This document shows, in pieces, positions 1 through 32,121 of a DNA stretch of 54,443 nucleotides. The notes under the pieces were generated by a model that was given only the letters and a program-made list of their open reading frames with translations, ran no database searches and was not told the origin of the DNA. Source of the DNA: a virus. Lineage: Duplodnaviria > Heunggongvirae > Uroviricota > Caudoviricetes. Position numbers and translations under genes: made by a program. The stretch's first letter is position 1. Every line of letters starts with the position of its first letter. The stretch lies in the IMG/VR virus record IMGVR_UViG_2579778982_000031, one strand, 5' to 3'.

Positions 1-198
1 GCAGAAGGAGACAGTCCTTTGCGACAAGTTAACCGCTGGTTCAAAGATCACTACGGAGTGCCCGTCAGAGTCATTCGTTGGGAGCCGGAAACACAACGTG
101 TTATCTACCTCCGCGAAGGCTATGAGCATGAGTGCTTCAGCCCGCTCGAACAGTTTCGTCGTAAATTCAGGGAAATAGAGGTCGGTCATGAGCACTAA
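1..198 (+). CDS. 3' end of an upstream gene, truncated by the window edge
   Basis: Open frame from position 1 to TAA at 196-198; overlaps the ATG of the next gene at 188, suggesting translational coupling. No recognisable motif. Confidence 0.3.
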
Positions 199-1129
199 AT
201 TAACCGGCTATGTATGGGATGGTTGCGCTGCATCAGGCATGAAATTATCCAGCGTGGCAATTATGGCCCGCCTGGCTGATTTCAGTAATGACGAAGGTGT
301 GTGCTGGCCATCAATTGAAACCATTGCCCGCCAGATTGGCGCGGGAATGAGTACCGTCAGAACGGCTATCGCACGGCTGGAAGCAGAAGGCTGGTTAACG
401 CGTAGGGCGCGTCGCCAGGGTAACCGCAATGCGTCGAATGTTTATCAGCTTAACGTTGCGAAGCTTCAGGCAGCGGCATTTTCTCAACTGTCAGATTCTG
501 ACCCGTCAAAATCTGACGCATCAAAATCTGACCCGTCAAAATTTGATGCGTCGAAATCTGGCAAAAAAGCGGGTTTTCACCCGTCAGAATCTGGCGGGGA
601 TCCGTCAGTAAAATCAAAACATGATCCGTCAGATAAAAAACCTTCTCGTCCGGACGCTTCGCAACCGGACACGCAGACGGATGAACAGGATTTTTTAACT
701 CGCCATCCTGATGCGGTTGTATTCAGCCCTAAAAAGCGCCAGTGGGGAACGCAGGATGATTTGACCTGCGCACAGTGGCTCTGGAAAAAAATCATCGCCC
801 TGTACGAGCAAGCCGCCGAATGTGACGGCGAGGTGGTTCGTCCCAAAGAACCGAACTGGACAGCCTGGGCAAACGAAATTCGCCTGATGTGTGTGCAGGA
901 TGGTCGTACTCACAAACAAATCTGCGAGATGTACAGCCGCGTCAGCCGCGATCCGTTCTGGTGCCGTAACGTGCTCAGCCCGTCGAAGTTGCGGGAAAAA
1001 TGGGATGAGCTTTCCCTGCGCTTATCACCGTCCGTTAGCACGTACACCGAAAAACGCGAAGACCCGTACTTCAAATCCAGTTACGACAACGTGGACTACA
1101 GCCAGATCCCGGCAGGATTCAGGGGGTGA
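188..1129 (+). CDS. Phage replication initiation protein (O-like, N-terminal HTH)
   Basis: N-terminal winged-helix/HTH-like segment, central DPSKS-type peptide repeats encoded by DNA iterons, position at the head of an early operon before rusA and Q. Confidence 0.6.
   Translation: MSTKLTGYVWDGCAASGMKLSSVAIMARLADFSNDEGVCWPSIETIARQIGAGMSTVRTAIARLEAEGWLTRRARRQGNRNASNVYQLNVAKLQAAAFSQLSDSDPSKSDASKSDPSKFDASKSGKKAGFHPSESGGDPSVKSKHDPSDKKPSRPDASQPDTQTDEQDFLTRHPDAVVFSPKKRQWGTQDDLTCAQWLWKKIIALYEQAAECDGEVVRPKEPNWTAWANEIRLMCVQDGRTHKQICEMYSRVSRDPFWCRNVLSPSKLREKWDELSLRLSPSVSTYTEKREDPYFKSSYDNVDYSQIPAGFRG
489..640. repeat. Iteron-like 15-bp direct repeats inside the replication gene (candidate ori)
   Basis: Four tandem copies of ~CCGTCAAAATCTGAC at 503, 518, 533 and 548, then degenerate copies near 581, 601 and 625 followed by A-rich sequence; the same layout as ori-lambda inside O. 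Confidence 0.5.
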
Positions 1130-1131
1130 TC

Positions 1132-1620
1132 ATGAGTCTTTTGAATGAAGTTCAGAAATTCATTGAAGCCCATCCGGGATGTACTTCCGGAGACATTGCG
1201 GATGCTTTTGCAGGTTACTCACGGCAGCGCGTTCTGCAGTCAGCAAGCAAGTTACGTCAGAGTGGGCGTGTGGCTCACCGTTGTGAAGGAGATACACGCA
1301 GACATTTCCCGCGCCTGACTGAGAGAGCGCAGGAACCGGAACCACAACCAGTTCGAGAAACCAGACCTGTGCGCAATTTCTATGTCGGCACTAACGATCC
1401 CCAGGTGATTTTGTGCCTGACCCGCCAGGCTGAAGAACTGGAGTCCAGGGGCTTATACCGTCGTGCTGCAACCGTGTGGATGGCGGCATTCCGTGAAAGC
1501 CACTCCCAGCCAGAACGAAACAATTTTCTGGCGCGTCGTGAACGGTGTTTACGGAAAAGCAGTAAGCAGGCTGCATCAGGTGAAGAGTGGTATCTCTCAG
1601 GGAATTACGTGGGGGCTTAA
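1132..1620 (+). CDS. PerC/ANR-family regulator-like protein
   Basis: C-terminal motif AEELESRGLYRRAATVWMAAF typical of the PerC/ANR family; ATG at 1132 preceded by AGGGGG; GTG at 1126 is an alternative start. Confidence 0.55.
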   Translation: MSLLNEVQKFIEAHPGCTSGDIADAFAGYSRQRVLQSASKLRQSGRVAHRCEGDTRRHFPRLTERAQEPEPQPVRETRPVRNFYVGTNDPQVILCLTRQAEELESRGLYRRAATVWMAAFRESHSQPERNNFLARRERCLRKSSKQAASGEEWYLSGNYVGA

Positions 1621-2273
1621 TGAGTAATAAATATTGCCAGGCGCTGGCGGAACTGCGGAACAAACCAGCCCATGAACTGAAGGAAGTGGGCGATCAGTGG
1701 CGCACGCCGGACAACATTTTCTGGGGAATTAACACCCTGTTTGGCCCGTTTGTTCTGGATCTGTTCACTGACGGTGATAACGCCAAATGTGCTGCGTATT
1801 ACACGGCGGAAGACAACGCGCTGGCGCATGACTGGTCAGAACGCCTTGCGGAGCTTAAAGGTGCTGCCTTTGGTAATCCCCCATACAGCCGCGCCAGTCA
1901 GCATGAGGGGCAATACATCACCGGCATGCGTTACATCATGAAGCATGCCAGTGCCATGCGTGATAAAGGCGGGCGCTATGTTTTCCTGATCAAAGCTGCC
2001 ACCAGCGAAGTGTGGTGGCCGGAAGATGCAGATCATATTGCTTTTATTCGCGGGCGTATTGGTTTTGAACTGCCTGCCTGGTTTATCCCGAAGGATGAGA
2101 AGCAGGTGCCGACAGGCGCTTTCTTCGCTGGTGCTATTGCTGTTTTCGACAAGACCTGGAAGGGACCGGCAATCAGCTACATCGGGCGCGATGAACTTGA
2201 GGCATGTGGTGAGGCCTTTCTGGCGCAGGTTCGCCAGCAGGCAGAAAAACTGGTCAGGGAGATGGCGGCATGA
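1620..2273 (+). CDS. Phage N6-adenine DNA methyltransferase (Dam-like)
   Basis: NPPY catalytic motif (FGNPPYS) and WRTPDNIF N-terminal motif; start overlaps the previous stop (TAATG). Confidence 0.65.
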   Translation: MSNKYCQALAELRNKPAHELKEVGDQWRTPDNIFWGINTLFGPFVLDLFTDGDNAKCAAYYTAEDNALAHDWSERLAELKGAAFGNPPYSRASQHEGQYITGMRYIMKHASAMRDKGGRYVFLIKAATSEVWWPEDADHIAFIRGRIGFELPAWFIPKDEKQVPTGAFFAGAIAVFDKTWKGPAISYIGRDELEACGEAFLAQVRQQAEKLVREMAA

Positions 2274-2596
2274 CGACGTTAACTCAATGCCAGCAGCAGG
2301 TGCTGGATATGCTGATTTCTTATCAGAAAGAACGTGGCTTCCCGCCAACCAATCAGGAGGTGGCAACCATGCTGGGATACCGTTCAGTGAATGCAGCGGT
2401 GGAGCATCTTCGCGCACTGGAGAAAAAAGGCGTCATCACGATAAAGCGTGGCGTGGCCCGGGGCATCACGCTTCATACCGCGGTGAAGGACGACGACAGC
2501 GAGGCGGTCGGGATTATCCGCTCACTGCTTGCCGGTGAGGAAAACGCCAGGCTGCGTGCAGCCCACTGGTTACATGAGAGGGGCCTGAAAGTATGA
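2270..2596 (+). CDS. LexA-like DNA-binding domain protein
   Basis: Resembles the LexA N-terminal winged-helix domain (ERGFPPTNQEVA...AAVEHLRALEKKGVI); no peptidase domain; ATGA overlap with the upstream gene. Confidence 0.5.
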   Translation: MTTLTQCQQQVLDMLISYQKERGFPPTNQEVATMLGYRSVNAAVEHLRALEKKGVITIKRGVARGITLHTAVKDDDSEAVGIIRSLLAGEENARLRAAHWLHERGLKV

Positions 2597-2982
2597 AGTT
2601 GATCCTTCCTTTCCCGCCCAGCGTGAACACGTACTGGCGACACCCCAACAAAGGGGCATTTGCTGGTAAGAGCCTGATAAGCGCGGCGGGGCGAAAATTT
2701 CAGAGCGCGGCGTGTGCAGCAATAGTTGAGCAGTTACGTCGTCTGCCAAAACCAACGTCGGCACCTGCTTCAGTGGAGATCGTGTTGTTTCCTCCGGATA
2801 ACCGGATCCGCGATCTGGACAACTATAACAAGGCACTGTTTGACGCCCTGACCCACGCGGGTGTGTGGGAAGACGACAGCCAGGTGAAAAGAATGCTGGT
2901 GGAGTGGGGACCGGTTATCCCGGAAGGGAAGGTCGAGATCACTATCAGTAAGTACGAGAAAACGGCGGGTGCAGCCGCCTGA
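2593..2982 (+). CDS. rusA: Holliday-junction resolvase RusA
   Basis: Classic RusA motifs: PPSVNTYW near the N-terminus and RDLDNYNKALFDAL with the catalytic Asp cluster; ~129 aa. Confidence 0.85.
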   Translation: MKLILPFPPSVNTYWRHPNKGAFAGKSLISAAGRKFQSAACAAIVEQLRRLPKPTSAPASVEIVLFPPDNRIRDLDNYNKALFDALTHAGVWEDDSQVKRMLVEWGPVIPEGKVEITISKYEKTAGAAA

Positions 2983-3001
2983 TCAAGAGGAGAAACGAAG
3001 T

Positions 3002-18706: not shown

Positions 18707-20202
18707 TGACGATAAGCTTTAACACCATTCCGTCGAATACGCTGGTTCCGATTTTTTATGCGGAAATGGATAACTCGGCGGCGAATACTGCACAGGACAG
18801 CGGAGCATCGCTGCTGATTGGTCATGCCAATAACGGTGCAGAGATTGTTGCCAACAGTCTGGTGCTGATGCCATCGGCAGACTATGCACGCCAGATTTGT
18901 GGTGCGGGAAGTCAGCTGGCGCGTATGGTCGAGGCTTATCGCCAGACCGACCCGTTTGGTGAACTGTATGTAATTGCCGTTCCTGAATCCACGGGCGCGG
19001 CGGCAACGGTTACGCTGACGGTGACCGGGGCGGCAACCGAAACCGGCACGGTGAATGTTTATGTGGGACGTACCCGCGTGCAGGCACCGGTGACCAACGG
19101 CGATAACGTCACGACGATTGCCAGCAGTATCAAAGATGCCATTAATGCCGTTCCGGCCCTGCCGTTTACGGCCTCATCTTCGGCAGGCGTGGTCACGCTG
19201 ACCGCGCGTCATAAGGGGCTTTGCGGGAATGAAATTCCTGTCAGCCTCAATTACTACGGCTTTGGTGGGGGCGAAGTGCTGCCAGCGGGCGTACAGATTG
19301 CTGTGGCGACGGGGAGCGCCGGAACGGGCGCTCCGGTTCTCACCGGCGCGGTGGCTGCAATGGCGGATGAGCCGTTTGATTATATTGGCCTGCCGTTCAA
19401 CGACACGGCCTCCGTTAACACGCTGGTGACAGAGATGAACGATACCAGCGGTCGCTGGAGCTATGCGCGTCAGCTGTATGGTCATGTGTATACGGCAAAG
19501 ATCGGCACGCTGTCAGAACTGGTGAACGCAGGTGACCAGTTTAACCAGCAGCACATTACCCTGGCGGGATACGAAAAAGAGACCCAGACGCCTGCCGACG
19601 AGCTGGCGGCAAGCCGTACCGCCCGCGCAGCGGTGTTTATTCGCAACGATCCGGCACGTCCCACGCAGACCGGTGAGCTGGTGGGTATGCTGCCTGCGCC
19701 GAAGGGGAAACGGTTCACGATGACCGAACAACAGACCCTGCTGTCTCATGGCGTGGCAACGGCGTATGTCGAAAGCGGGGTGCTGCGCATTCAGCGTGAT
19801 GTCACCACGTACAGGAAAAACGCTTACGGTGTTGCGGATAACAGCTACCTCGACAGCGAGACGCTGCATACCAGCGCGTATGTGCTGCGCAAACTGAAAT
19901 CCGTCATTACCAGTAAGTACGGGCGTCACAAGCTTGCCAGCGACGGTACCCGCTTTGGTCCCGGTCAGGCGATTGTCACACCGGCGGTGATCAAAGGGGA
20001 ACTGCTGGCAACCTACCGTCAGCTTGAGCGTGCGGGGATCGTGGAAAACTACGAACTGTTTAAGCAGTACCTGGTTGTGGAGCGTGATGCCAGCGATCCG
20101 AACCGCCTGAACACGCTGTTCCCGCCTGACTATGTTAACCAGTTGCGTGTCTTTGCCGTGGTTAACCAGTTCCGTCTTCAGTATTCAGAGGAGTCTGCAT
20201 AA
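18706..20202 (+). CDS. Contractile tail sheath protein (Mu L-like)
   Basis: 498 aa at the head of the tail module, followed by a tube-sized gene. Confidence 0.8.
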   Translation: MTISFNTIPSNTLVPIFYAEMDNSAANTAQDSGASLLIGHANNGAEIVANSLVLMPSADYARQICGAGSQLARMVEAYRQTDPFGELYVIAVPESTGAAATVTLTVTGAATETGTVNVYVGRTRVQAPVTNGDNVTTIASSIKDAINAVPALPFTASSSAGVVTLTARHKGLCGNEIPVSLNYYGFGGGEVLPAGVQIAVATGSAGTGAPVLTGAVAAMADEPFDYIGLPFNDTASVNTLVTEMNDTSGRWSYARQLYGHVYTAKIGTLSELVNAGDQFNQQHITLAGYEKETQTPADELAASRTARAAVFIRNDPARPTQTGELVGMLPAPKGKRFTMTEQQTLLSHGVATAYVESGVLRIQRDVTTYRKNAYGVADNSYLDSETLHTSAYVLRKLKSVITSKYGRHKLASDGTRFGPGQAIVTPAVIKGELLATYRQLERAGIVENYELFKQYLVVERDASDPNRLNTLFPPDYVNQLRVFAVVNQFRLQYSEESA

Positions 20203-20558
20203 TGGCCCGTATCGGGGGAACCTGTTATTTCAAAATTGACGGTCAGCAGCTATCGCTGACCGGCGGCATTGAGGTGCCCATGAACAGGACGGTCAATGAT
20301 GACATCATCGGCCTGGACGGTTCAGTGGACCGCAAGGAAACTCACCGTGCGCCTTATGTCAAAGGGACCTTCAAGGTGCCGAAGAATTTTCCGGTGAGCA
20401 AAATCACCTCGTCTGATGAGATGACCATCACTGCCGAGCTGGCAAACGGTCAGGTCTATGTACTGTCGTCTGCCTGGCTGCACGGCGAAGCGAACCATAA
20501 TGCCGAAGAAGGCACGGTCGATCTTGAGTTCCACGGTGAAGAAGGGGATTACCAGTAA
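20202..20558 (+). CDS. Tail tube protein (Mu M-like)
   Basis: 118 aa directly after the sheath with ATGA-type coupling. Confidence 0.7.
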   Translation: MARIGGTCYFKIDGQQLSLTGGIEVPMNRTVNDDIIGLDGSVDRKETHRAPYVKGTFKVPKNFPVSKITSSDEMTITAELANGQVYVLSSAWLHGEANHNAEEGTVDLEFHGEEGDYQ

Positions 20559-20827
20559 TGAAAGAGCTTGAGTTAAAGAAACCGATTACCGCTCATGGCG
20601 AGACACTCTCCGTACTGGAGTTTGATGAGCCCACCGGGAAAGATGTCCGCGAGCTGGGATATCCCTACCAGATGAATCAGGATGAGTCCGTCAGACTTCT
20701 GGCGCATGTGGTATCGAAATACATCGTGCGGCTGGCGAAAGTGCCGCAAAGCTCTGTCGACCAGATGTCTCCGGCAGACCTGAATGCAGCGGCGTGGCTT
20801 GTGGCCGGTTTTTTCCTCCAGGCCTGA
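20558..20827 (+). CDS. Tail assembly chaperone (0-frame product)
   Basis: 89-aa ORF between tube and tape measure; ends just after a T TTT TTC slippery heptamer. Confidence 0.6.
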   Translation: MKELELKKPITAHGETLSVLEFDEPTGKDVRELGYPYQMNQDESVRLLAHVVSKYIVRLAKVPQSSVDQMSPADLNAAAWLVAGFFLQA

Positions 20828-20976
20828 CGGCTGAATACCTCACTGATCGCTTCTTTGACTGCGCCAGTTACTGGCGCATTAATCCCTTCGAATTGCTGAA
20901 TATGCCGATCAGTGAAATTCCCTTGCTGGTCAGTCAGGCAAACAGGATAGAGCAGGAGAAACGCACACATGGCTGA
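20794..20976 (+). CDS. Tail assembly chaperone, -1 frameshift extension
   Basis: ORF in the -1 frame overlapping the chaperone 3' end and reaching the tape-measure start; slippery site at 20809-20815. Confidence 0.45.
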   Translation: MACGRFFPPGLTAEYLTDRFFDCASYWRINPFELLNMPISEIPLLVSQANRIEQEKRTHG

Positions 20977-22804
20977 ATTTGAGCTTAAGGCGTTGATCAC
21001 CGGTGTCGACAGGCTTTCTCCCGCGCTGTCGAAAATGCAAAAGAAAATCCGGGGATTTAAACGCCAGGCGGAAGAAGCGTCACAGGGTGGGCTGGCGCTT
21101 GGTGGCGGACTGGCAGCGGGTCTGACGCTTTCCCTGAAATCTTATGCCGATCAGGAAAACGCCGCCACCGGGCTGAAAGTCGCCATGATGGATGCGAACG
21201 GCGAGGTTGGAAAGAGCTTTCAGGACATCAATAAACTGGCTATTGGCCTGGGTAACCAGCTACCCGGTACAACGGCTGATTTCCAGAACATGATGCAGAT
21301 GCTGGTGCGTCAGGGGATCCCGGCAGAAAACATTCTTGGTGGTGTGGGTAAAGCGACAGCTTATCTTGCGGTACAACTGAAAAAAACACCGGAAGCGGCT
21401 GCTGAGTTTGCTGCAAAGATGCAGGATGCTACCGGAACGGCGTCAGAAGACATGATGGGGCTGTTCGACACTATCCAGAAGGCGTTTTATCTGGGCGTTG
21501 ATGATACCAACATGTTGTCCTTCTTCACTAAAACCAGTTCTGTTCTGAAAATGGTGAATAAGGACGGTCTTCAGGCTGCACAGAGTCTTGCCCCCATCAG
21601 TGTCATGATGGATCAGATGGGGATGAACGGGGAGTCGGCAGGTAATGCCCTGCGAAAAGTTATCCAGTCCGGATTAAGCGTTAAGAAAATCAGGGACGTC
21701 AATAAAATCATGGCCCGCCAGAAACTCGGGGTACAGCTCGATTTTACTGATGGCAAAGGGAGTTTTGGCGGTCTTGATAACATGTTCAGGCAACTGGCAA
21801 AGCTGCGAAAACTGACCGACGTTAAGCGAACCGGTGTACTTAAGGCAATATTTGGTGATGATGCCGAAACCCTTCAGGTGGTCAATGCGCTGATCGATAA
21901 AGGAAAGGATGGCTACGATCAGATCCAGCAGAAGATGAATAAACAGGCCAGCCTGAATAAACGTGTTCAGGCTCAGCTTGGTACGCTGTCCAACCTGTGG
22001 GAGGCAATGACGGGGACCGCAACTAACGGCCTTGCGGCTATTGGCGGCGCATTTTCTGGTGACGCTAAAAATATCACGCAATGGCTGGGGGAGTTAGGGG
22101 AAAAATTCACGAAGTTTGCGGATGAAAATCCCCGGGTTATTCGCGGCGTCGTCGGGCTTGCTGCCGGTCTTGCGATTCTGAAACTGGGATTGATGGGCGT
22201 TGGCGGTGCCATCAGTATTGTCAGCAGGATCATGTCGATGACGCCGATTGGCATGATTGCGACGGCGATAGCCCTCGCTGCGGGATTAATTATCACTAAC
22301 TGGGATGTTGTCGGACCTTATTTTAAGAAACTCTGGGAAACCATTGGTCCTTATTTTGAGACTGGCTGGGAACTTCTTAAGAAGGTTTTTGCCTGGTCGC
22401 CGCTGGGGATGGTGATCAATAACTGGGGACCGGTTGTTAAGTGGTTTCAGGATATGTGGGACAAGCTGAAGCCAATTATTGAGTGGTTTACCGACAGTTC
22501 CGGTGACACGGTCGATGCCATTAACTCTGCGCAGTGGGGCGCGGGTGCTTATGATGCTTATGGGACGGGAATACCGGCGCGGGGATACACACCTTATCCG
22601 GCGGTAGATCCGGCTCAGTCAAACAACGCCTCCGGTGCCACAGGCCTGAATCCCTTCATGATTAACAAAGCTTCTGCGCCAAAAGTTGATGGTGAGATCA
22701 AGGTCTCTTTTGTGAATTCGCCTCCGGGTATGCGGGTTATGGAAACGCGATCCAGCGGTTTTGATGTCAGCCATGATGTTGGCTATACGCGCTTTGGCAG
22801 GTAA
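20969..22804 (+). CDS. Tail tape measure protein
   Basis: 611 aa, alpha-helical and Ala/Gly-rich with a hydrophobic central segment; canonical position. Confidence 0.8.
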   Translation: MAEFELKALITGVDRLSPALSKMQKKIRGFKRQAEEASQGGLALGGGLAAGLTLSLKSYADQENAATGLKVAMMDANGEVGKSFQDINKLAIGLGNQLPGTTADFQNMMQMLVRQGIPAENILGGVGKATAYLAVQLKKTPEAAAEFAAKMQDATGTASEDMMGLFDTIQKAFYLGVDDTNMLSFFTKTSSVLKMVNKDGLQAAQSLAPISVMMDQMGMNGESAGNALRKVIQSGLSVKKIRDVNKIMARQKLGVQLDFTDGKGSFGGLDNMFRQLAKLRKLTDVKRTGVLKAIFGDDAETLQVVNALIDKGKDGYDQIQQKMNKQASLNKRVQAQLGTLSNLWEAMTGTATNGLAAIGGAFSGDAKNITQWLGELGEKFTKFADENPRVIRGVVGLAAGLAILKLGLMGVGGAISIVSRIMSMTPIGMIATAIALAAGLIITNWDVVGPYFKKLWETIGPYFETGWELLKKVFAWSPLGMVINNWGPVVKWFQDMWDKLKPIIEWFTDSSGDTVDAINSAQWGAGAYDAYGTGIPARGYTPYPAVDPAQSNNASGATGLNPFMINKASAPKVDGEIKVSFVNSPPGMRVMETRSSGFDVSHDVGYTRFGR

Positions 22805-22864
22805 TGAAAAATTAATCTGTTAATGAGTCCCACTCCGGTGGGATTTTTTATGTACGGAGTTTAT

Positions 22865-24193
22865 ATGACGTGGAAAGACAGACTTCAGGACGCGTCATTT
22901 CGCGGTGTGCCGTTTAAGGTTGAAGAAGAAAGTGCGGGAACCGGTCGTCGTGTGGAAACGCACGAATACCCGAACCGCGACAAACCCTATACCGAAGACC
23001 TGGGGAAAATCACTTTCCGCCCGTCCATCACGGCTTATGTGGTGGGAGATGACTGCTTTGACCAGCGCGATCGCCTGATTGACGCGCTGAATAAACCCGG
23101 TCCCGGCACGCTTGTCCATCCGACTTACGGTGAGCTGAAAGTCTGTGTTGACGGAGAGGTTCGGGTCAGCACATCGAAGAGTGAAGGGCGTATTGTCCGC
23201 TTTGACCTGAAGTTTGTCGAAGCGGGAGAACTCTCTTACCCCACATCAGGTGCGGCGACGGCGCAGACGCTGATGTCATCCTGTTCTGCACTGGATGACT
23301 GCATCAGTGACAGTTTCAGTAGTTTCAGTATCGATGGCGTGGCAGATTTTGTGCAGAACGACGTCGTCGGTAATGCCAGCACAATGCTTGGGTATGTTTC
23401 TGATGCGATGAAAGTGGTGGATTCTGCCGTATCGGATGCCGCCAGGCTGTTGCAGGGGGATATCTCGGTACTTCTGCCGCCGCCATCGTCAGGCAAAAAT
23501 TTCGTTGAGCAGGTGCAGAAAATGTGGCGTACCGGGAAACGCCTTTATGGTAACGCCAGCGACCTGGTCACCATGATCAAAACGCTTTCCGGTGTCAGCC
23601 TCGGCAGCGATCTGCAACCGCGCGGCGTCTGGAAAACGGACAGTAAAACCACCGCCACGGCTACGCAGCAGCGTAACGTGGTTGCCAGCACCCTTCGTAC
23701 GACCGCAATCAGCGAAGCGGCGTATGCCGTCACCCGATTGCCTACGCCAACAACTTCCGCGGTGATGCAGAATGCCGCAGTGGGGCAGGCAACAACACCT
23801 GCGCAGAGCACTGGCTGGCCTTCCGTCACGCATCCGGCACTGAACAATGCACCGGCGGTGAAAAACACAGTTGACCTGCCGACGTGGGAAGAACTGACTG
23901 ACATTCGCGACACACTGAATACGGCAATTGATAAGGAGTTGTCCCGTACAACCAGTGATGCGCTGTTTCTGGCGCTGCGCCGGGTGAAAGCAGATCTGAA
24001 TGCGGATATCAACACGCGCCTTGAACAGTCTGCACGGATCATTCAGCGCACGCCGGATGAGGTTTTACCCGCGCTGGTGCTGGCGGCGACCTGGTTTGAT
24101 AACGCGGCGCGTGACGCGGACATTATCCGGCGTAATGCCATTACGCATCCCGGCTTTGTGCCGGTGATCCCTCTGAAGGTGCCAGTGCAATGA
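22865..24193 (+). CDS. DNA circularisation protein (Mu N-like)
   Basis: N-terminal WKDRLQDASFRGVPF...HEYPNRDKPYTEDLG pattern of Mu gpN-family proteins; ATG at 22865 chosen. Confidence 0.7.
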   Translation: MTWKDRLQDASFRGVPFKVEEESAGTGRRVETHEYPNRDKPYTEDLGKITFRPSITAYVVGDDCFDQRDRLIDALNKPGPGTLVHPTYGELKVCVDGEVRVSTSKSEGRIVRFDLKFVEAGELSYPTSGAATAQTLMSSCSALDDCISDSFSSFSIDGVADFVQNDVVGNASTMLGYVSDAMKVVDSAVSDAARLLQGDISVLLPPPSSGKNFVEQVQKMWRTGKRLYGNASDLVTMIKTLSGVSLGSDLQPRGVWKTDSKTTATATQQRNVVASTLRTTAISEAAYAVTRLPTPTTSAVMQNAAVGQATTPAQSTGWPSVTHPALNNAPAVKNTVDLPTWEELTDIRDTLNTAIDKELSRTTSDALFLALRRVKADLNADINTRLEQSARIIQRTPDEVLPALVLAATWFDNAARDADIIRRNAITHPGFVPVIPLKVPVQ

Positions 24194-25269
24194 ACGATAA
24201 CGTCACGCTACGGGTAAATGGCCGGGAGTGGAATGGCTGGACATCGGTGCGCATCGGTGCCGGTATTGAACGGCTGGCGCGGGATTTCAGTGTGGAGATC
24301 ACCCGCCAGTGGCCGGGAGATGAGGGTATCACCACGCTTCAGCCGCGCATTAAAAACGGTTCAAAAGTGGAAGTGCTGATTGGTGATGAGCTGGTGATCA
24401 CCGGCTGGGTGGAGGCGACGCCCGTTCGGTACGATGCCCGTTCGGTCAGCACCGGTATTGCCGGACGTAGTCTGACGGCTGACCTGATTGACTGTGCAGC
24501 CGAACCGACACAGTTTAACGGACGCTCGCTGGTGCAGATTGCGCAGGCGCTTGCTGCGCCTTTCGGTATTGAGGTGGTGAACAGCGGTGCGCCGTCGGGT
24601 GTTATTCCTGATGTTCAGCCTGATCACGGTGAAACGGTGATTGAGGTAATCAACAAAATACTCGGTCAGCAGCAGGCGCTGGCTTACGACGACCCGCACG
24701 GCAGGCTGGTGATTGGCGGTATTGGCTCAACGCGGGCACATACCGCGCTGGTACTTGGGGAAAACATCCTTTCCTGTGATACGGAGAAGAGTATCCGGGA
24801 GCGGTTTTCTGTTTACCAGGTGGCGGGGCAGCGTGCCGGAAACGACGATGATTTCGGTGAGGCCACCACCACCGCGCTGCGGGCCCGCACAGAGGACGCA
24901 TTTATTGCCCGTTACCGTCCGATGTATATCAGGCAGACAGGGCAGGCTACGGGGGCAGGCTGTATTGCGCGTGCTGACTTTGAAGCCCGGCAACGGGCGG
25001 CGCGGACGGATGAAACCACCTATGTGGTGCAGGGCTGGCGACAGGGTAACGGTACGCTGTGGCAACCCAACCAGCGGGTGATTGTCTTTGATCCGGTCTG
25101 TGGTTTTGACAATACCGAACTGCTTGTTTCGGAAGTCACGTTTACTCAGGACCAGAACGGCACCCTGACGGAAATCCGTGTCGGCCCGCCTGATGCTTAT
25201 CTGCCTGAACCTGAAGCCCCCGGCGCGCGGAAAAAGAAAAAAGCCAGAGTACAGGAGGACCCGTTCTGA
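24190..25269 (+). CDS. Baseplate hub / tail protein (Mu P-like)
   Basis: 359 aa, position after the N-like gene, ATGA overlap. Confidence 0.65.
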   Translation: MNDNVTLRVNGREWNGWTSVRIGAGIERLARDFSVEITRQWPGDEGITTLQPRIKNGSKVEVLIGDELVITGWVEATPVRYDARSVSTGIAGRSLTADLIDCAAEPTQFNGRSLVQIAQALAAPFGIEVVNSGAPSGVIPDVQPDHGETVIEVINKILGQQQALAYDDPHGRLVIGGIGSTRAHTALVLGENILSCDTEKSIRERFSVYQVAGQRAGNDDDFGEATTTALRARTEDAFIARYRPMYIRQTGQATGAGCIARADFEARQRAARTDETTYVVQGWRQGNGTLWQPNQRVIVFDPVCGFDNTELLVSEVTFTQDQNGTLTEIRVGPPDAYLPEPEAPGARKKKKARVQEDPF

Positions 25270-25817
25270 TGAGGACGATTGAAGCCATGCAGCGACAACT
25301 TCTCGGCCTGATTGGGCGGGCAGTGGTGAAAAGCATCAGTGCCGCCACGAAATGTCAGACCGTGGATGTGTCCCTGATTGCCGGTGAACCCAAAGCCGGG
25401 GTTGAACATCTTGAACCCTACGGTTTTACCGCAAGGGCAAACAGCGGTGCGGAAGCGGTGGTGTTGTTTCCGGATGGCGACCGTTCTCATGCGGTGGTTG
25501 TTACGGTGTCGGACCGGCGCTACCGCCTGAAAGGGCTGCAGACGGGTGAGGTGGCTGTCTATGACGATCAGGGGCAGTCTGTGACGCTGACCCGGGAGGG
25601 GATCGTGGTGGACGGTGCAGGTAAAACGATCACGTTTCGCAATGCGCCCAGAGCACGTTTTGAAATGGACCTGGAAGTGACCGGACAGGTGAAAGACCTG
25701 TGCGACTCCGGCGGCACCACCATGTCAGCGATGCGGCTTGCCTATAACGGCCATTGTCACAGAGAGAACGGTCAGGGCAGTAACACCGACAAACCGGATA
25801 AAGCGATGGAGGCATGA
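25269..25817 (+). CDS. Baseplate assembly protein V-like (spike)
   Basis: 182 aa with an OB-fold-like N-terminal region; position. Confidence 0.65.
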   Translation: MRTIEAMQRQLLGLIGRAVVKSISAATKCQTVDVSLIAGEPKAGVEHLEPYGFTARANSGAEAVVLFPDGDRSHAVVVTVSDRRYRLKGLQTGEVAVYDDQGQSVTLTREGIVVDGAGKTITFRNAPRARFEMDLEVTGQVKDLCDSGGTTMSAMRLAYNGHCHRENGQGSNTDKPDKAMEA

Positions 25818-26242
25818 TGGAACTGTGGCTGACGGTGAACGGTAAACGCACCTGCGCCAGCGCACCGCTGGATCCGCTGACCCGCGCCGTGGTGATTTCC
25901 CTGTTTACCTGGCGGCGGGCGGAGCCTGATGACAATGCCGACGTCCCGATGGGATGGTGGGGGGATACCTGGCCTGCGGTACAGAATGACCGTTACGGCT
26001 CCCGGCTGTGGCTGCTTCAGCGCGGCAAACTGACCAATCAGCTGGTGCAGACGGTAAGGGGGTATATCCGCGAATGCCTGCAATGGATGATTGATGACGG
26101 TGTGGTGTCCCGTATTGATCTGGATATCCGCCGCACCGGGATTAATGAACTGGGTAACAGTATCACTCTCTGGCGTCGTGACGGACCGGTAATGATTTCT
26201 TTTGATGATCTGTGGAGTGCGATAACGCATGGCGGACAGTGA
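25814..26242 (+). CDS. Baseplate protein (Mu gp46 / gp25-W-like)
   Basis: 142 aa between the V-like and J-like genes. Confidence 0.6.
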   Translation: MMELWLTVNGKRTCASAPLDPLTRAVVISLFTWRRAEPDDNADVPMGWWGDTWPAVQNDRYGSRLWLLQRGKLTNQLVQTVRGYIRECLQWMIDDGVVSRIDLDIRRTGINELGNSITLWRRDGPVMISFDDLWSAITHGGQ

Positions 26243-27287
26243 ATTTCAGCGCCCGACGCTGGCAGAAAATATCAGTATGCTCCGTAACGATTTATTCGCC
26301 AGGCTGGACGTCAGCGACACGCTCCGGCGCATGGATGAAGACGTGCGGGCAAAGGTGTATGCGGCGGCGCTGCATACGGTTTACGGTTACATCGATTATC
26401 TGGCAATGAACATGCTGCCTGACCTGTGCGATGAGTCCTGGCTGGCGCGACATGCTGCGATGAAACGGTGTCCGCGCAAGGGGGCCACGTCTGCCAGCGG
26501 GTATATGCGCTGGGAAGGTGTCAGCGATGGCCTGAAGGTGACCGCCGGGAGTGTTATTCAGCGCGATGACCTGGTTCAGTACACGGCAACTTCTGATGCA
26601 ACCAGCTCAGGTGGAGTCCTGCGCGTGCCGATCGCCTGCTCAACTGCAGGCGCGGTCGGTAACGCTGACGACGGTACGGCATTAATCCTGGTCACGCCGG
26701 TGAATGGTCTGCCGTCTTCCGGTGTGGCAGATACCCTGACTGGCGGATTCGATACTGAAGATCTGGAAACGTGGCGCGCCCGCGTCATTGAGCGGTATTA
26801 CTGGACGCCGCAGGGCGGGGCTGACGGGGACTATGTCGTCTGGGCTAAAGAAGTGCCCGGCATTACCCGCGCATGGACATACCGTCACTGGATGGGAACG
26901 GGGACTGTCGGTGTGATGATTGCCGGCAGTGACCTGATTAATCCCATTCCGGAAGAATCAACGGAAACGGCGGCAAGACAACATATCGGGCCACTGGCCC
27001 CGGTGGCAGGCTCTGATTTGTATGTGTTCAGGCCGGCGGCGCATACGGTGGATTTTCATATCCGCGTGACGCCGGACACACCAGAAATACGGGCTGCCAT
27101 TACCGCGGAGTTGCGTTCGTTCCTGCTGCGTGATGGTTATCCGCAGGGAGAACTGAAGGTATCGCGTATCAGTGAGGCGATTTCCGGTGCGAACGGGGAA
27201 TACAGCCATCAATTGCTTGCACCGGCGGACAATATCTCCATTGCAAAAAATGAACTGGCGGTTCTGGGGACGATTTCATGGACGTGA
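26229..27287 (+). CDS. Baseplate J-like protein
   Basis: 352 aa; canonical baseplate wedge position and size. Confidence 0.75.
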
Positions 27288-27862
27288 CAAACGATGATTA
27301 CATCCGTCTGTTGTCGGCACTGCTGCCGCCCGGTCCGGCGTGGTCAGCCAGCGATCCGGCGATTGCCGGTACGGCACCGTCATTAACCCGTGTTCATCAG
27401 CGTGCGGATGCCCTGATGCGGGAGCTGGATCCGCGCACCACCACCGAACTGATAAACCGCTGGGAGCGTCTGTGCGGCCTGCCGGATGAATGTATTCCTA
27501 CAGGGACACAGACCCTTCGCCAGCGCCAGCAACGGCTGGATGCGAAGGTTAACCTGTCGGGTGGCATCAACGAGGATTTTTATCTTGCACAGCTTGCTGC
27601 CCTGGGCAGACCAGATGCTACCATCACGCGATACGACAAAAGCACGTTCACCTGCTCATCGGCCTGTACTGACGCGGTGAATGCGCCGGAATGGCGGTAT
27701 TACTGGCAGATCAACATGCCAGCCGCCACCAACACCACCTGGATGACATGTGGCGATCCCTGTGATTCCGCACTGCGTATCTGGGGCGACACCGTTGTCG
27801 AATGTGTGCTTAACAAACTCTGCCCGTCGCATACCTACGTAATTTTTAAATATCCGGAGTAA
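27278..27862 (+). CDS. Tail protein, YmfQ-like (Mu gp48 family)
   Basis: 194 aa directly upstream of the tail fibre gene, as ymfQ is in e14. Confidence 0.65.
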
Positions 27863-27865
27863 TCC

Positions 27866-28504
27866 ATGCATCGTATAGACACGAAAACCGCGCAGAAGGA
27901 TAAGTTCGGCGCGGGTAAGAACGGTTTTACCCGTGGTAACCCCCAGACTGGCACGCCTGCCACCGATCTGGATGATGACTACTTTGATATGTTGCAGGAA
28001 GAACTCTGCAGCGTGGTGGAGGCATCCGGTGCCAGCCTGGAGAAGGCGCGGCACGACCAGTTGCTTACCGCGCTTCGTGCGCTGCTGTTAAGCCGCAAGA
28101 ATCCGTTTGGCGATATCAAATCGGATGGCACGGTGAAAACGGCTCTCGAAAACCTTGGTTTGGGAGAAGCGGCAAAACGGAATGTGGGAACAGGGGAAAA
28201 TCAGATACCAGATATGTCTGCATTTCCATCTGGCAAAAACTGGTTTCAGTTACCAAGTGGTCATATTGTCCAAATGTTTTCGATGAATGTTTATGGGGCG
28301 GACACTAACGGAACTACAGGTAATTTCCCTATTGCATTTCCTTCAGGCGCACTGGCTGTTAGTGCCTTATGGTCAGATGGCACATTAACGGCTGCTCCGA
28401 CCTTTAAACTTATGGGGTACACGACAACAAGGACATCAGTAACCTTAAAAGTATCAGCCGGAAATGGTTTGTATGGAACTATGATTATCGCAATAGGAAG
28501 ATAA
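27866..28504 (+). CDS. Tail fibre protein (constant N-terminus plus variable C-terminus in current orientation)
   Basis: Spans the left crossover repeat at ~28150; the part upstream of the repeat is shared with the alternative C-terminus encoded on the opposite strand. Confidence 0.7.
28150..28168. repeat. Left crossover site of the invertible tail-fibre segment (hix/gix-like)
   Basis: TTGGTTTGGGAGAAG with an AAAACC-TTGGTTT palindromic core inside the fibre gene; inverted copy at 30046-30064. Confidence 0.6.
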
Positions 28505-28505
28505 T

Positions 28506-28949
28506 ATGAATCAATATATTTATTCCCCTTCGGAAAATGCTTTTTATGCTGTTAATTTAAAAAACACTTATGAAGTAAATGGAACATGGCCTGCTGATGC
28601 ATTAGATATTCCTGATGACATTTCTGTAAAATATATGGCGGAACCGCCACAAGGGAAAATCCGAGTTGCAGGGGAAAATGGTTTTCCCACATGGGCTGAA
28701 ATACCTCCACCATCACATGAGGAACTTATTGAACAGGCCGAATCAGAGAGGCAATTATTGATTAACCAGGCCAACGAATACATGAACAGTAAACAATGGC
28801 CCGGTAAAGCCGCTATTGGTCGTCTGAAAGGCGAGGAACTGGCACAATATAATTCGTGGCTGGATTATCTGGACGCACTGGAACTGGTCGATACTTCCGG
28901 GGCGCCAGATATTGAATGGCCTACGCCTCCGGCAGTTCAGGCCAGATGA
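28506..28949 (+). CDS. Tail fibre assembly protein (Tfa)
   Basis: 147 aa after the fibre gene; conserved C-terminal PDIEWPTPP motif. Confidence 0.7.
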   Translation: MNQYIYSPSENAFYAVNLKNTYEVNGTWPADALDIPDDISVKYMAEPPQGKIRVAGENGFPTWAEIPPPSHEELIEQAESERQLLINQANEYMNSKQWPGKAAIGRLKGEELAQYNSWLDYLDALELVDTSGAPDIEWPTPPAVQAR

Positions 28950-29526
28950 CATCCGGCGCGGTGCTGGTATCTGTTGCCGTCACCGCGTCAATGTAATCCA
29001 GCACAGCGTTAAGGCGGGTTGTTTCTGCCTGCGTCAGTTTACGTCCGGCCTGTAATTTCAGCTGAATCAGACTGATGGAGGCCATTGCAGTATCAATCAG
29101 TGACTGGCGCTGTGCTTCTGCCGTGTCTACTGCGACGCTATGCTGTGCCTCAGTATCGGTCACCCATTTCTCACCATCCCATTTATCGTATGGTGTTAAC
29201 GGGGCGATAGTTGTGGTATTTTCAGGGTAATCACCCGGAGCTGTGATTTCTTTTGACTCTCCCGTTTTGGTGCTATAGACGATTTCACCGCGATGGTCTG
29301 GCACATATTCCCATGAGTTAAAATTTGCAGAACGACAGATAGCATAACCCACCTTATATGTGCCAGGAGCATCTAAACAGGAATATGCGGGGATACCGAC
29401 ACCCACAGCAAGATATTCAATTGATGCAGAAATATACTCCCGTGTCTCACTGTCATAGTTATAAACGGTAATCTCTCCTGCCTTTGTGGCAATAAATTTA
29501 TTATTTAAGATGGCGTTATACATCAT
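28921..29526 (-). CDS. Alternative tail fibre assembly protein (inverted copy)
   Basis: 201 aa on the opposite strand inside the invertible segment; ends with the Tfa-type motif PDVIWPELPEA. Confidence 0.7.
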   Translation of the reverse strand: MMYNAILNNKFIATKAGEITVYNYDSETREYISASIEYLAVGVGIPAYSCLDAPGTYKVGYAICRSANFNSWEYVPDHRGEIVYSTKTGESKEITAPGDYPENTTTIAPLTPYDKWDGEKWVTDTEAQHSVAVDTAEAQRQSLIDTAMASISLIQLKLQAGRKLTQAETTRLNAVLDYIDAVTATDTSTAPDVIWPELPEA

Positions 29527-30101
29527 GCAGCCCTCACAATGTAATTAAATGAAATATTACGTGGGCGTGTCTCTGCTGCACCGACAATACTGGTGCTCAA
29601 CCCCGTTGCCGTTCGTTTGTTATTTTTATTTCCTTCAATCAGACAGTTGTAATCATCATTACCAATTAACGAATTGGTGGCATCAATACTGTCCGGGGAC
29701 AAGGCATTAGTAGTGGAACTTAAAGTCAGCATCTCGTCTGAACTTGGAAGATTTTTTAATGGTGTTTCATTGCGTGAAATACCCGCGTAAAAAAAGGACT
29801 CATGCCTGTGAGCTTCAAAAGAGTCATCCTGAAGACTTAGCAAGGCTCGCCCCGCATCCACTCCACGTCCATCATCCCAGCCACGAATAAATTCACCGCG
29901 TAAATCAGGCAATTTATTGGTCGGGTAAGCCTTTGCCAGTTCCGGGTATTCTTCAGCAGAAAAAGCCGCACCATTGCATTTCAGCCAGCCTGTTGGCGGA
30001 GTGGCTGAAGGCCACGGAACAGGCACCCCAACCGGTAATGCAGAGCCTTCTCCCAAACCAACGTTTATGAAAATGCAGAAATAACGAGCAAATGGCATCA
30101 T
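29523..30101 (-). CDS. Alternative tail fibre C-terminal segment (silent in this orientation)
   Basis: Contains GWLKCNGAAFSAEEYPELAKAY...LPDLRGEFIRGWDDGRG, typical of Mu S/P2 H-type receptor-binding C-termini; 5' end crosses the right crossover repeat. Confidence 0.65.
   Translation of the reverse strand: MMPFARYFCIFINVGLGEGSALPVGVPVPWPSATPPTGWLKCNGAAFSAEEYPELAKAYPTNKLPDLRGEFIRGWDDGRGVDAGRALLSLQDDSFEAHRHESFFYAGISRNETPLKNLPSSDEMLTLSSTTNALSPDSIDATNSLIGNDDYNCLIEGNKNNKRTATGLSTSIVGAAETRPRNISFNYIVRAA
30046..30064. repeat. Right crossover site of the invertible tail-fibre segment
   Basis: Reverse complement of the 28150-28168 repeat (≥15 bp identical), just upstream of the invertase gene. Confidence 0.6.
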
Positions 30102-30127
30102 TCCTGCTTTTGTCAGGGAGATCTACC

Positions 30128-30682: not shown

Positions 30683-31024
30683 AACCGCAGACATGTCGTA
30701 TGCAGGAGGTGTCGCGGTTGGCTGGTGAACTTTTGATAGTGCGAGTATTGAATGATTTCCAGCCGTTACTGATTTTACGCATTTTTGTATGAGAGGGTTT
30801 GCACCTCCTTCCACCGATTCTCCATGACTTTACGCCACTGTCTCTAGAACTGCTATGTGCCAACAGCAGACATTCATAGCACACAGTTTTGTTAACAACT
30901 AGAAATAAGTTTAGGAATAGTCGCGATATATCTATTAAAGATACAATCATTCAAATAAATGAGACATTTTCGGCATGCTGGGAAAAGTAATTAAAAATGG
31001 TGAAAGCCAATTATTTTTTATTAA

Positions 31025-32015: not shown

Positions 32016-32121
32016 GGTTGTCAGGGCTGCAACAGCAGCCCTGTGCCAGGAGCAGACGTTAACGACCAAGCATTGGCGGCAATTGAGCTCAGCGCAATTG
32101 CCGTTCAAGTGCAACTCCGTT

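What the first reader, a model, noticed from the sequence alone, without database searches (positions are those of the whole stretch)
489..640. Origin-like iterons embedded in the replication gene, mirrored as a peptide repeat
The 15-bp tandem DNA repeats encode the DPSKS/DASKS peptide repeats of the O-like protein, as ori-lambda does inside O. This supports the call as the replication initiator and origin. No P/DnaC-like loader gene follows; a PerC-like regulator does.
Basis: seen in the sequence. Interest (0 to 1): 0.45.

Follow-up and report, generated by a model that had tools for sequence, protein, structure and literature searches.

The report
Prophage replication origin inside initiator gene
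A run of short palindromic DNA repeats inside this prophage's replication-initiator gene is very probably the phage's replication origin, built like the classic lambda origin; the unusual point is that the phage has no helicase-loader gene and its initiator ends in a copy of the tail of the host restart protein DnaT.

Summary
Tandem Repeats Finder calls a 15-bp array at 497-560, the best-scoring tandem repeat in the 54-kb window. The unit is a 13-bp palindrome, GTCARAWTCTGAC, with six sites in 490-595 and only two elsewhere. Two GATCCGTCAG boxes follow at 599 and 623.

The origin reading is supported by comparison, not by experiment.
- The gene (188-1129) encodes an HTH_36 winged-helix domain, a disordered linker (aa 102-160, which is the repeats) and a lambda-O-like C-terminal domain.
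- Across 57-65 related genes, codon choice in the repeats and the block after them is almost fixed, against a mean top-codon share of 0.54 in the N-domain. This points to selection on the DNA.
- Relatives with other N-domains carry other repeats at the same place. Some lie in three reading frames or in both orientations, so they are DNA sites and not peptide repeats.
- The least stable 30-40 bp of the gene (607-646) lies just after the array, as in lambda.

No helicase loader is encoded anywhere in the prophage. The last nine residues match the end of host DnaT (8/9). Across 79 loci, P follows only lambda-like tails.

This is a new member of a known kind. The DnaT-like tail is the more novel lead.

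The parts
188..1129 (+). Replication initiator gene, 313 aa. Layout: winged-helix N-domain, disordered linker, lambda-O-like C-domain, DnaT-like tail.
   Evidence: PHROG 391 'replication initiation O-like', E 2e-135. Pfam HTH_36, E 4e-11. BLASTP against lambda O, E 6e-26. AlphaFold2 domain layout. PGAP names it only 'helix-turn-helix domain-containing protein'.
188..490 (+). N-terminal winged-helix domain (aa 1-101), the presumed iteron-binding module.
488..597 (.). Iteron array: six 13-bp palindromes GTCARAWTCTGAC at 490-502, 505-517, 520-532, 535-547, 550-562 (15-bp phasing) and 583-595.
   Evidence: Logo from 410 units in 65 related genes: CTGAC-nCn-TCARAA-TCTGAc. Codon bias in the array: Ser TCA+TCT 83% against 37% elsewhere, Lys AAA 98% against 67%.
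575..640 (.). Conserved cis-element block. It overlaps iteron 6 and holds two 24-bp repeats that each start with GATCCGTCAG (599-608, 623-632), so each carries a Dam site.
   Evidence: Top-codon share is 0.82-1.0 at the conserved codons of the block, for example TTT 54/54, GAA 49/49, GAT 57/57, TCA 54/54, GTA 56/56, with CCG 46/56 the lowest. The mean is 0.54 for 56 conserved N-domain residues. GATCCGTCAGTA is identical in 51 of 65 genes. Repeat pair D3.
607..646 (.). Least stable (most AT-rich) 30-40 bp of the gene, a candidate DNA-unwinding element.
   Evidence: Nearest-neighbour dG/bp is -1.17 to -1.21, against a window mean of -1.42. This is in the top 2-3% of all windows in the 54 kb. Lambda's AT-rich region scores -1.05 to -1.11 by the same measure.
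647..670 (.). 10-bp palindrome CGTCCGGACG (647-656) and the CAACCGGAC repeat. They encode the conserved junction S(R/C)PxASQPD where N- and C-modules are exchanged.
   Evidence: Read directly from the sequence. Repeat D4. The junction is conserved in chimeric relatives L017, L069 and L078.
671..1027 (+). C-terminal helical domain (aa 162-280), homologous to the lambda O C-terminal domain.
1100..1126 (+). C-terminal tail SQIPAGFRG, 8/9 identical to the extreme C-terminus of E. coli DnaT (SQIPPGFRG).
   Evidence: The DnaT tail RD.N..S.PD..IP.GFRG is invariant in 13 enterobacterial DnaT orthologues. Relatives carry longer matches, for example L037 RERDINAISRPDTTIPPGFRG.
1132..1620 (+). YfdN / PerC-like gene in the position where lambda has P.
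   Evidence: Pfam PerC, E 4e-9. PGAP names it 'yfdN, PerC family transcriptional regulator'.
1620..2273 (+). Phage Dam (N6-adenine) methyltransferase, possibly linked to the two conserved GATC sites in the origin.
   Evidence: Pfam Dam, E 1e-45. A Dam-like ORF is among the first three downstream ORFs in 59 of 79 related loci.

Best explanation
Positions 488-656 are most likely the replication origin of this SfII/SfIV-like prophage, lying inside the gene of its own initiator.

Proposed mechanism (all steps inferred):
1. Dimers of the N-terminal winged-helix domain bind the six palindromic 13-mers at 490-595.
2. The resulting nucleoprotein complex destabilises the adjoining low-stability block at 599-646. 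That block carries two conserved GATCCGTCAG boxes, each with a Dam site.
3. The lambda-O-like C-terminal domain and its tail bring in the host helicase.

Because the DNA sites fall in the part of the gene that encodes a disordered linker, they show up as an SD(P/A)SK peptide repeat. The peptide repeat is a by-product of the DNA sites, not the selected feature.

The phage has no P, DnaC or DnaB gene. I infer that helicase recruitment runs through host factors, plausibly through the C-terminal tail that copies the conserved end of host DnaT.

What is shown: the repeats, the domain architecture, the homology to lambda O, the DNA-level constraint, the co-inheritance of N-domain and repeats, and the absence of a loader. 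What is inferred: binding, unwinding, helicase recruitment and any role of methylation.
For: - The repeats are real and unique in the window.
- Architecture: HTH_36 winged-helix domain aa 1-101, disordered linker aa 102-160 (pLDDT below 50) that coincides with the repeats, and a confident C-domain aa 162-280.
- The C-domain is homologous to lambda O. Lambda's annotated iterons lie at O codons 117-145, between its N-domain (PF04492, aa 22-115) and C-domain. Ours lie at codons 101-137.
- DNA-level selection in 57-65 genes from many enterobacterial genera. In the array, Ser is TCA or TCT in 83% of cases against 37% elsewhere, and Lys is AAA in 98% against 67%.
- In the distal block codons are nearly fixed, with a top-codon share of 0.82-1.0, for example GAT 57/57, TCA 54/54, GTA 56/56. 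The mean is 0.54 for 56 conserved N-domain residues.
- At one position the amino acid varies (S, P or A) while the third base A is kept in 57 of 57 genes.
- No conserved overlapping ORF explains this.
- Relatives with other N-domains carry other repeats at the same place. GGTCAAAATG occurs four times in three reading frames (L069). GGGGTYAAY occurs eleven times in both orientations (L014). In both loci every match lies in the linker.
- Within the family, half-site variants follow N-domain subgroups: TCTGAC, TCTGTY and TCTGAA.
- The N-domain plus repeats (aa 1 to about 165) is inherited as a unit joined to at least two different C-domains. The C-domain also occurs behind other N-domains.
- The least stable 30-40 bp of the ORF lies immediately after the array, as in lambda.
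- Plaque-forming relatives SfII and SfIV carry this same module, also with no loader gene in SfII's annotation.
Against: - There is no experimental mapping of an origin for this family in the papers I could search.
- All sites in this particular family are in frame and the array changes copy number. Some homologues keep only one or two full sites (P0016, P0034, P0068). Recent slippage therefore contributes to the array, and a long array may not be essential.
- The AT-rich element is modest: about 69% AT by my own base count of 606-640, and dG/bp -1.17 to -1.21 against -1.05 to -1.11 for lambda.
- A 15-bp spacing would put neighbouring dimers on opposite faces of the helix (my inference from the spacing), which is unusual for iterons.
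- Synonymous constraint shows a cis-acting nucleic-acid element. It does not by itself show that the element is an origin.
Confidence: 0.75

Rival explanations
1. The repeat is only a low-complexity, slippage-prone linker. The SDxSK peptide is tolerated or selected as a flexible spacer, and the origin lies elsewhere in the phage.
For: - The region is predicted to be disordered.
- All units in this family are in frame (402 of 410).
- Copy number ranges from about 1 to 10 among close relatives, which is typical of slippage.
Against: - The peptide is poorly conserved: S varies to F, C, Y or P, and K to N or E. The DNA stays within one substitution of the consensus.
- Codon choice is nearly fixed across genera whose N-domain synonymous sites are randomised.
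- The unit is a palindrome, which a peptide repeat does not require.
- Sister families have the motif in three reading frames or in both orientations, giving unrelated peptides.
- There is no other repeat cluster of comparable score in the window.
Confidence: 0.08
2. The conserved DNA is a cis-element with another role. Candidates are an autoregulatory operator for the initiator, a Dam-regulated control site for downstream genes (yfdN, dam), or an mRNA structure, rather than the site where replication starts.
For: - Synonymous constraint alone does not identify the function.
- Two invariant GATC sites lie close to a Dam gene that is nearly always nearby.
- A terminator-like hairpin lies on the minus strand at 570-583.
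Against: - There is no promoter-like site in 300-1300.
- No Rfam family reaches its threshold. The only hit is a spurious microRNA model at 31 bits against a gathering score of 97.
- The sequence is conserved rather than showing compensatory changes.
- The positional match to ori-lambda in a protein homologous to O, and the co-inheritance of the repeats with the DNA-binding domain, are what an origin predicts. In lambda, O binding at ori also sits inside the O gene, so autoregulation and origin function would not exclude each other.
Confidence: 0.12
3. The module is a decayed remnant. The prophage has lost its loader gene and no longer replicates on its own, so the repeats are a fossil origin.
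For: - No loader is present in the prophage.
- Truncated copies of the gene exist in E. coli (L004, L005).
- From memory, not checked here: K-12 yfdO is such a remnant.
Against: - The same gene order without a loader occurs in the isolated phages SfII and SfIV and in several recently isolated Escherichia phages at 97-99% identity.
- 69 of 79 related loci across genera lack a loader.
- The gene in the window is intact, and the constraint on the DNA is still in force.
Confidence: 0.05

Closest known systems
ori-lambda inside gene O of phage lambda (and the O genes of other lambdoid and Stx phages)
   Same: - Iterons with dyad symmetry lie inside the initiator gene, in the segment between the DNA-binding N-domain and the C-domain.
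- A less stable, A/T-rich stretch follows on the C-terminal side.
- The iterons leave a weak peptide repeat in the protein.
- The C-terminal domains are homologous, about 31-39% identical.
   Different: - The N-domain is HTH_36, not Phage_rep_O (PF04492).
- There are six 13-bp sites at 15-bp phasing, against lambda's four annotated iterons of about 18 bp.
- The AT-rich element is weaker.
- No P gene follows.
- The C-terminal tail is DnaT-like, not the lambda NTDWIYGVDL tail.
P22 gene 18 and phage L gene 18 origins
   Same: The origin is deduced from distinct short repeats inside the initiator gene, with different repeats for different initiator specificities (bioRxiv 10.1101/2020.10.05.325894).
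   Different: Those phages encode their own DnaB-type helicase (gp12), and the repeat sequences differ.
Initiator-only ('initiator-solo') phage replication modules, as I recall them from Weigel and Seitz, FEMS Microbiol Rev 2006. This is from memory; the paper could not be opened.
   Same: An O-type initiator gene with internal repeats and no helicase or loader gene.
   Different: I could not check whether SfV, SfII or this family were listed there, or whether its origin was predicted.
E. coli DnaT (primosomal protein I)
   Same: - The extreme C-terminus ...SQIP(P/A)GFRG is shared.
- Relatives share up to about 20 residues of the tail.
- In sister proteins with a Phg_2220_C domain, the match extends into the DnaT C-terminal domain (E 6e-8).
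   Different: - The protein in the window has no DnaT domain (PF17948).
- It is a sequence-specific origin binder, not a restart factor.
- The partner of the DnaT tail is not stated in the papers I read.
Iteron-type plasmid origins with winged-helix Rep proteins, and P1 oriR with its GATC-bearing repeats (general knowledge, not tested here)
   Same: A winged-helix initiator, repeated binding sites beside an unwinding region, and Dam sites in or near that region.
   Different: Here the origin is inside the initiator's coding sequence. There are no DnaA boxes nearby.

Membership tests
Lambda-type origin embedded in the initiator gene | A cluster of repeated binding sites inside the initiator ORF, between the N- and C-domain coding segments | tested here: met
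   Sites at 490-595 correspond to codons 101-137. The N-domain ends near aa 101 and the C-domain starts near aa 162. Lambda's iterons lie at O codons 117-145.
Lambda-type origin embedded in the initiator gene | Repeats have internal dyad symmetry | tested here: met
   GTCAGATTCTGAC at 490-502 is a perfect palindrome around its central base. The others have 1-2 mismatches.
Lambda-type origin embedded in the initiator gene | An A/T-rich unwinding element adjacent to the iterons | tested here: inconclusive
   607-646 is the least stable stretch of the ORF and in the top 2-3% of the window. It is clearly weaker than lambda's.
Lambda-type origin embedded in the initiator gene | Selection acts on the DNA sequence, not only on the protein | tested here: met
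   Codon fixation. Motifs in several frames and orientations in sister families. No conserved overlapping ORF.
Lambda-type origin embedded in the initiator gene | The initiator binds the repeats, and replication starts there | not testable with these tools
   Only indirect support: co-inheritance and covariation of N-domain and repeat.
Lambda O protein family | N-terminal Phage_rep_O domain (PF04492) | tested here: not met
   The query hits HTH_36 and not PF04492. Lambda O hits PF04492 at E 6e-36.
Lambda O protein family | C-terminal domain homologous to the lambda O C-domain | tested here: met
   BLASTP E 6e-26. tblastn 39% identity over aa 166-277.
Lambda O/P replication module | A P-type helicase loader is encoded next to the initiator | tested here: not met
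   The next genes are PerC-like and Dam. No loader is annotated in the whole prophage or in SfII. P (PF06992) follows only the 8 relatives with a lambda-like tail.
PHROG 391 / HTH_36 'O-like' phage initiators | Full-length profile match | tested here: met
   phrog_391, E 2e-135, aa 1-313 against profile positions 1-298 of 298.
DnaT (primosomal protein I) | DnaT DNA-binding domain (PF17948) | tested here: not met
   No Pfam hit for aa 160-313 even at E up to 10. DnaT itself scores E 4e-21.
DnaT (primosomal protein I) | Conserved C-terminal tail ...IP.GFRG at the very end of the protein | tested here: met
   8 of 9 residues identical, at the terminus in both proteins. The tail is invariant in DnaT orthologues.

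The most novel reading that the evidence does not exclude
In these loader-less phage replication modules, the initiator's last roughly 10-20 residues mimic the conserved C-terminal tail of host DnaT (RD.N..S.PD..IP.GFRG). This tail would stand in for lambda P. It would tie a sequence-specific origin complex to whatever the DnaT tail contacts in the host restart primosome or the DnaB-DnaC complex, so the phage would take over the replication-restart route for initiation.

On this reading the tail is a swappable adaptor. Lambda-like W-rich tails go with a P gene. DnaT-like tails go with none, and they occur on two unrelated C-domain types.
Probability: 0.35. Interest if true: 0.65.

Novelty: new member of a known kind. 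Interest (0 to 1): 0.4.

Why it matters
For annotation, this pins down the probable origin and the initiator of a very common group of enterobacterial prophages: SfII, SfIV and SfV-like phages and E. coli prophages with yfdN/yfdO-type genes. RefSeq currently labels the gene only as a 'helix-turn-helix domain-containing protein'.

It also gives clear natural examples that such repeats are DNA sites and not peptide repeats. In sister families the same motif occurs in three reading frames or on both strands.

The wider interest is in how a lambda-O-like initiator works without P. The DnaT-like tail, and its strict either/or relation with a P gene, give a concrete and testable idea. They also offer a possible handle on the still unknown way in which DnaT passes on to DnaB-DnaC.

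Tried and rejected
- **Rfam scan of 1-3000.** The only hit is a microRNA model far below its threshold, caused by the palindromic repeats. Rejected.
- **Promoter scan of 300-1300.** No promoter-like site. A minus-strand terminator-like hairpin at 570-583 was noted and not pursued.
- **DnaA boxes.** None near the region.
- **Overlapping gene as the cause of synonymous constraint.** Four of the five alternative frames are closed in all 65 genes, and the fifth is open in only 32. Rejected.
- **PDB sequence search.** Only weak MarR-type hits to the winged-helix domain.
- **Pfam on the C-terminal half at E up to 10.** No family.
- **Literature.** I found no mapped or predicted origin for SfII, SfIV or yfdO-type modules, and no mention of the PPGFRG tail.
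- **Weigel and Seitz 2006.** The review could not be opened.
- **Recent DnaT structure papers.** The parts I searched and read do not say what the last roughly 20 residues of DnaT bind.

Full report
**1. What is in the sequence**

The region lies in ORF 188-1129 (+ strand, 313 aa). Tandem Repeats Finder reports one array at 497-560. It has a 15-bp period, 4.3 copies and 81% matches, and can also be read as a 30-bp period with 88% matches. Over the whole 54,443-bp window this is the top-scoring tandem repeat.

The repeat finder places six in-register copies across 476-598. It also finds a pair of 15-mers at 599 and 623, GATCCGTCAGTAAAA and GATCCGTCAGATAAA.

The repeat unit is itself a palindrome, GTCARAWTCTGAC. 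With up to 2 mismatches it occurs at 490-502, 505-517, 520-532, 535-547, 550-562 and 583-595, and only twice in the remaining 54 kb. None of 100 dinucleotide-preserving shuffles reaches the observed count.

In frame, the units read SDPSK, SDASK, SDPSK and FDASK. The clean tandem array is 497-560, and the more degenerate copies run on to about 640.

**2. The gene and its context**

The window is an SfII/SfIV-like prophage. Positions 1-2300 are 97-99% identical to Shigella phages SfII and SfIV and to several recently isolated Escherichia phages.

The gene order in SfII is cI, cro, cII-like, DUF4222, this gene, a PerC-like gene, dam, a LexA-DNA-binding-domain gene, rusA, a KilA-N gene, a DUF968 gene and Q. 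The window has the same order as far as I traced it.

An E. coli chromosome that is 100% identical over window 20000-34000 shows the whole prophage, from the integrase to the tail fibres. It has no helicase or helicase-loader gene. The full SfII annotation has none either. PGAP calls the gene only 'helix-turn-helix domain-containing protein'.

The protein matches PHROG 391, 'replication initiation O-like', over its full length (E 2e-135). Pfam finds an HTH_36 winged helix at aa 23-70.

AlphaFold2 gives three parts:
- a winged-helix N-domain, aa 1-101;
- a segment with pLDDT below 50 at aa 102-160, which is exactly the repeat-encoded part;
- a confident helical C-domain, aa 162-280, followed by a low-confidence tail.

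The C-domain is homologous to the C-terminal domain of lambda O. BLASTP gives E 6e-26 and tblastn gives 39% identity over aa 166-277. The N-domain is not the lambda O N-domain: lambda O hits PF04492 and this protein does not.

In lambda's own record the four annotated iterons lie at 39034-39118, which is O codons 117-145, between the N- and C-domains. Here the sites lie at codons 101-137, so the positional match is close.

**3. Is the constraint on the DNA or on the peptide?**

A scan of one genome per species returned 80 related loci. Sixty-five of them have this N-domain type. They come from Escherichia, Shigella, Citrobacter, Enterobacter, Kosakonia, Kluyvera, Pantoea, Yersinia, Rahnella, Providencia, Proteus and other genera.

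Inside the array, codon choice is strongly skewed compared with the rest of the same genes:
- Ser is TCA in 44% and TCT in 39% of cases, against 26% and 11% elsewhere.
- Lys is AAA in 98%, against 67% elsewhere.

The pooled unit logo is CTGAC-nCn-TCARAA-TCTGAc. Genes carry 4-10 units, most often 6.

The peptide is not well kept. S changes to F, C, Y or P, and K changes to N or E. Each of these is a single-base change that leaves most of the DNA motif intact.

In the block just after the array, codons are almost fixed across genera. Examples are TTT 54/54, GAA 49/49, TCT 53/55, GAT 57/57, CCG 53/57, TCA 54/54, GTA 56/56, TCA 51/51, GAT 50/50, CCA 51/55 and TCA 45/45. At one position the amino acid varies (S, P or A) while the third base A is kept in 57 of 57 genes.

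For comparison, 56 conserved residues of the N-domain have a mean top-codon share of 0.54 in the same genes. No alternative reading frame is consistently open across this region. This is strong evidence for a cis-acting DNA element covering about 488-640.

**4. Relatives with other DNA-binding domains**

The same lambda-O-like C-domain occurs behind unrelated N-domains, and each has its own repeat in the linker.
- L069, L076 and L081 carry GGTCAAAATG three or four times, in three different reading frames. All four matches in the 6-kb L069 locus lie in the linker.
- The sister HTH_36 family (L009-L014, L071) carries GGGGTYAAY up to eleven times in both orientations within about 170 bp. It is read as VDP in one orientation and as EGS or EGL in the other. 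All eleven matches in the L014 locus lie in the linker.
- L020 carries the perfect 14-bp palindrome TCTGAACGTTCAGA, L070 carries TCACCAGGKGGT four times, and L058 carries GASGGCTCAC.

These cannot be peptide repeats. They are DNA sites.

Within the family of the window, half-site variants follow N-domain subgroups. TCTGAC goes with the common STVRTAI helix. TCTGTY goes with the Providencia and Proteus subgroup. TCTGAA goes with L020.

The N-domain plus repeats (aa 1 to about 165) is also found joined to a different C-domain, Phg_2220_C. The joint lies at a conserved S(C/R)PxASQPD segment, encoded at 644-670 around the 10-bp palindrome CGTCCGGACG. Lambdoid phages are known for this kind of modular pattern, in which the DNA-binding domain and its iterons move together (summarised in the phage L paper).

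**5. The unwinding element**

A nearest-neighbour stability scan puts the least stable 30-40 bp of the ORF at 607-646, directly after the array. Its dG/bp is -1.17 to -1.21, against a window mean of -1.42, which places it in the top 2-3% of all positions. Lambda's AT-rich region scores -1.05 to -1.11 by the same measure and lies in the corresponding place.

The element is therefore in the right position but is modest. It overlaps the two conserved GATCCGTCAG boxes.

**6. Alternatives examined**

I found no Rfam family, no promoter-like site and no DnaA box. A terminator-like hairpin on the minus strand at 570-583 is unexplained.

Copy number varies among close relatives, and a few homologues keep only one or two full sites. 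Slippage therefore shapes the array, and a long array may not be essential.

No paper I could search maps or predicts this origin.

**7. The missing loader**

It led to the most interesting side result.

The last nine residues, SQIPAGFRG, match the extreme C-terminus of E. coli DnaT, [9 protein letters not shown], at 8 of 9 positions. Relatives have longer matches:
- L069 ends VNHISEPDTEIPPGFRG and L037 ends RERDINAISRPDTTIPPGFRG. DnaT ends [20 protein letters not shown].
- For L037, whose C-domain is Phg_2220_C, BLASTP against DnaT gives E 6e-8 and extends into the DnaT C-terminal domain.

In DnaT orthologues from 13 enterobacterial taxa, the tail RD.N..S.PD..IP.GFRG is invariant.

Across 79 loci the tail type and the presence of a loader gene sort as follows.

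| Tail type | Loci | Gene among the first three downstream ORFs |
|---|---|---|
| Lambda-like, W-rich (HWNSPEAWENTL, TDWIDG...) | 8 | Pfam-confirmed P gene in all 8 |
| DnaT-like (...GFR...) | 51 | No loader in 50, a DnaC-like gene in 1 |
| WxxIW type | 19 | No loader in any |
| Other | 1 | A DnaC-like gene |

P follows no locus without a lambda-like tail (0 of 71; Fisher p = 4e-11, not corrected for relatedness). The DnaT-like tail occurs on both C-domain types.

I infer that the tail is an adaptor for helicase recruitment and that the DnaT-like version uses a host partner. The parts of the DnaT papers I searched and read do not say what the tail binds. The string PPGFRG does not occur in the searchable literature.

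**8. Verdict**

The repeats are real. They are best explained as the iterons of a lambda-style origin embedded in the initiator gene, with the peptide repeat as a by-product. I put this at about 0.75, because the functional steps are inferred and not shown.

The principle is textbook for lambdoid phages, and several phage records already call the gene 'replication protein O'. This is therefore a new, well-supported member of a known kind and not a new kind.

Three details go beyond the known picture and are testable: the loader-less arrangement, the DnaT-like tail and the pair of invariant Dam sites.

Noticed in passing
window 1100-1126 (also L037, L069, L070 and many other loci): The initiator ends in SQIPAGFRG, 8/9 identical to the extreme C-terminus of host DnaT. 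Relatives share up to about 20 tail residues with DnaT. The tail is invariant among DnaT orthologues from 13 enterobacterial taxa.
   Followed up: partly
loci L003-L082, the 3' end of the initiator gene and the next three ORFs: Tail type predicts the loader. Lambda-like W-rich tails are always followed by a P gene (8/8). Of 51 loci with DnaT-like tails, 50 have no loader and 1 has a DnaC-like gene. A third tail type (WxxIW, 19 loci) also has no loader.
   Followed up: partly
window 599-602 and 623-626, with the dam gene at 1620-2273: Two GATC sites inside the conserved GATCCGTCAG boxes are kept in 57/57 and 50/50 related genes by exclusive use of GAT for Asp. A Dam-like methyltransferase is among the first three downstream ORFs in 59 of 79 loci. 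This hints that methylation controls the origin.
   Followed up: partly
window 570-583, minus strand: A terminator-like hairpin, CGGGTGAAAACCCG followed by CTTTTTTGCC, reads on the antisense strand between iterons 5 and 6. The codons GGT TTT SAC CCG that form it are nearly fixed in relatives.
   Followed up: no
window 644-670: The conserved junction S(R/C)PxASQPD is encoded around the perfect 10-bp palindrome CGTCCGGACG (647-656) and the repeat CAACCGGAC. It marks the point where N-domain-plus-iteron modules and C-domains are exchanged among relatives.
   Followed up: partly
window 1054-2300: Stx2c-converting phages and several Escherichia phages share only 1054-2300 at about 98% identity. That span is the last 25 codons of the initiator (its tail) plus yfdN and dam. 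A second recombination joint therefore lies just before the tail.
   Followed up: no
window 44516-44551, 44595-44615 and 54099-54125: A perfect 9-bp tandem repeat, GTTGGTTCA, occurs four times. Its reverse complement, TGAACCAAC, occurs about three times some 9.5 kb away, in the chromosomal part of the window. The first lies near the start of ecpD according to the coordinates.
   Followed up: no
public records NC_021857.1 (SfII) and PP925833.1: The Dam methyltransferase gene (Pfam Dam, E 1e-45 for the copy in the window) is labelled 'phosphoadenosine phosphosulfate reductase' in these records. The initiator is variously labelled 'primosomal protein', 'replication protein O' or just 'helix-turn-helix protein'.
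   Followed up: no
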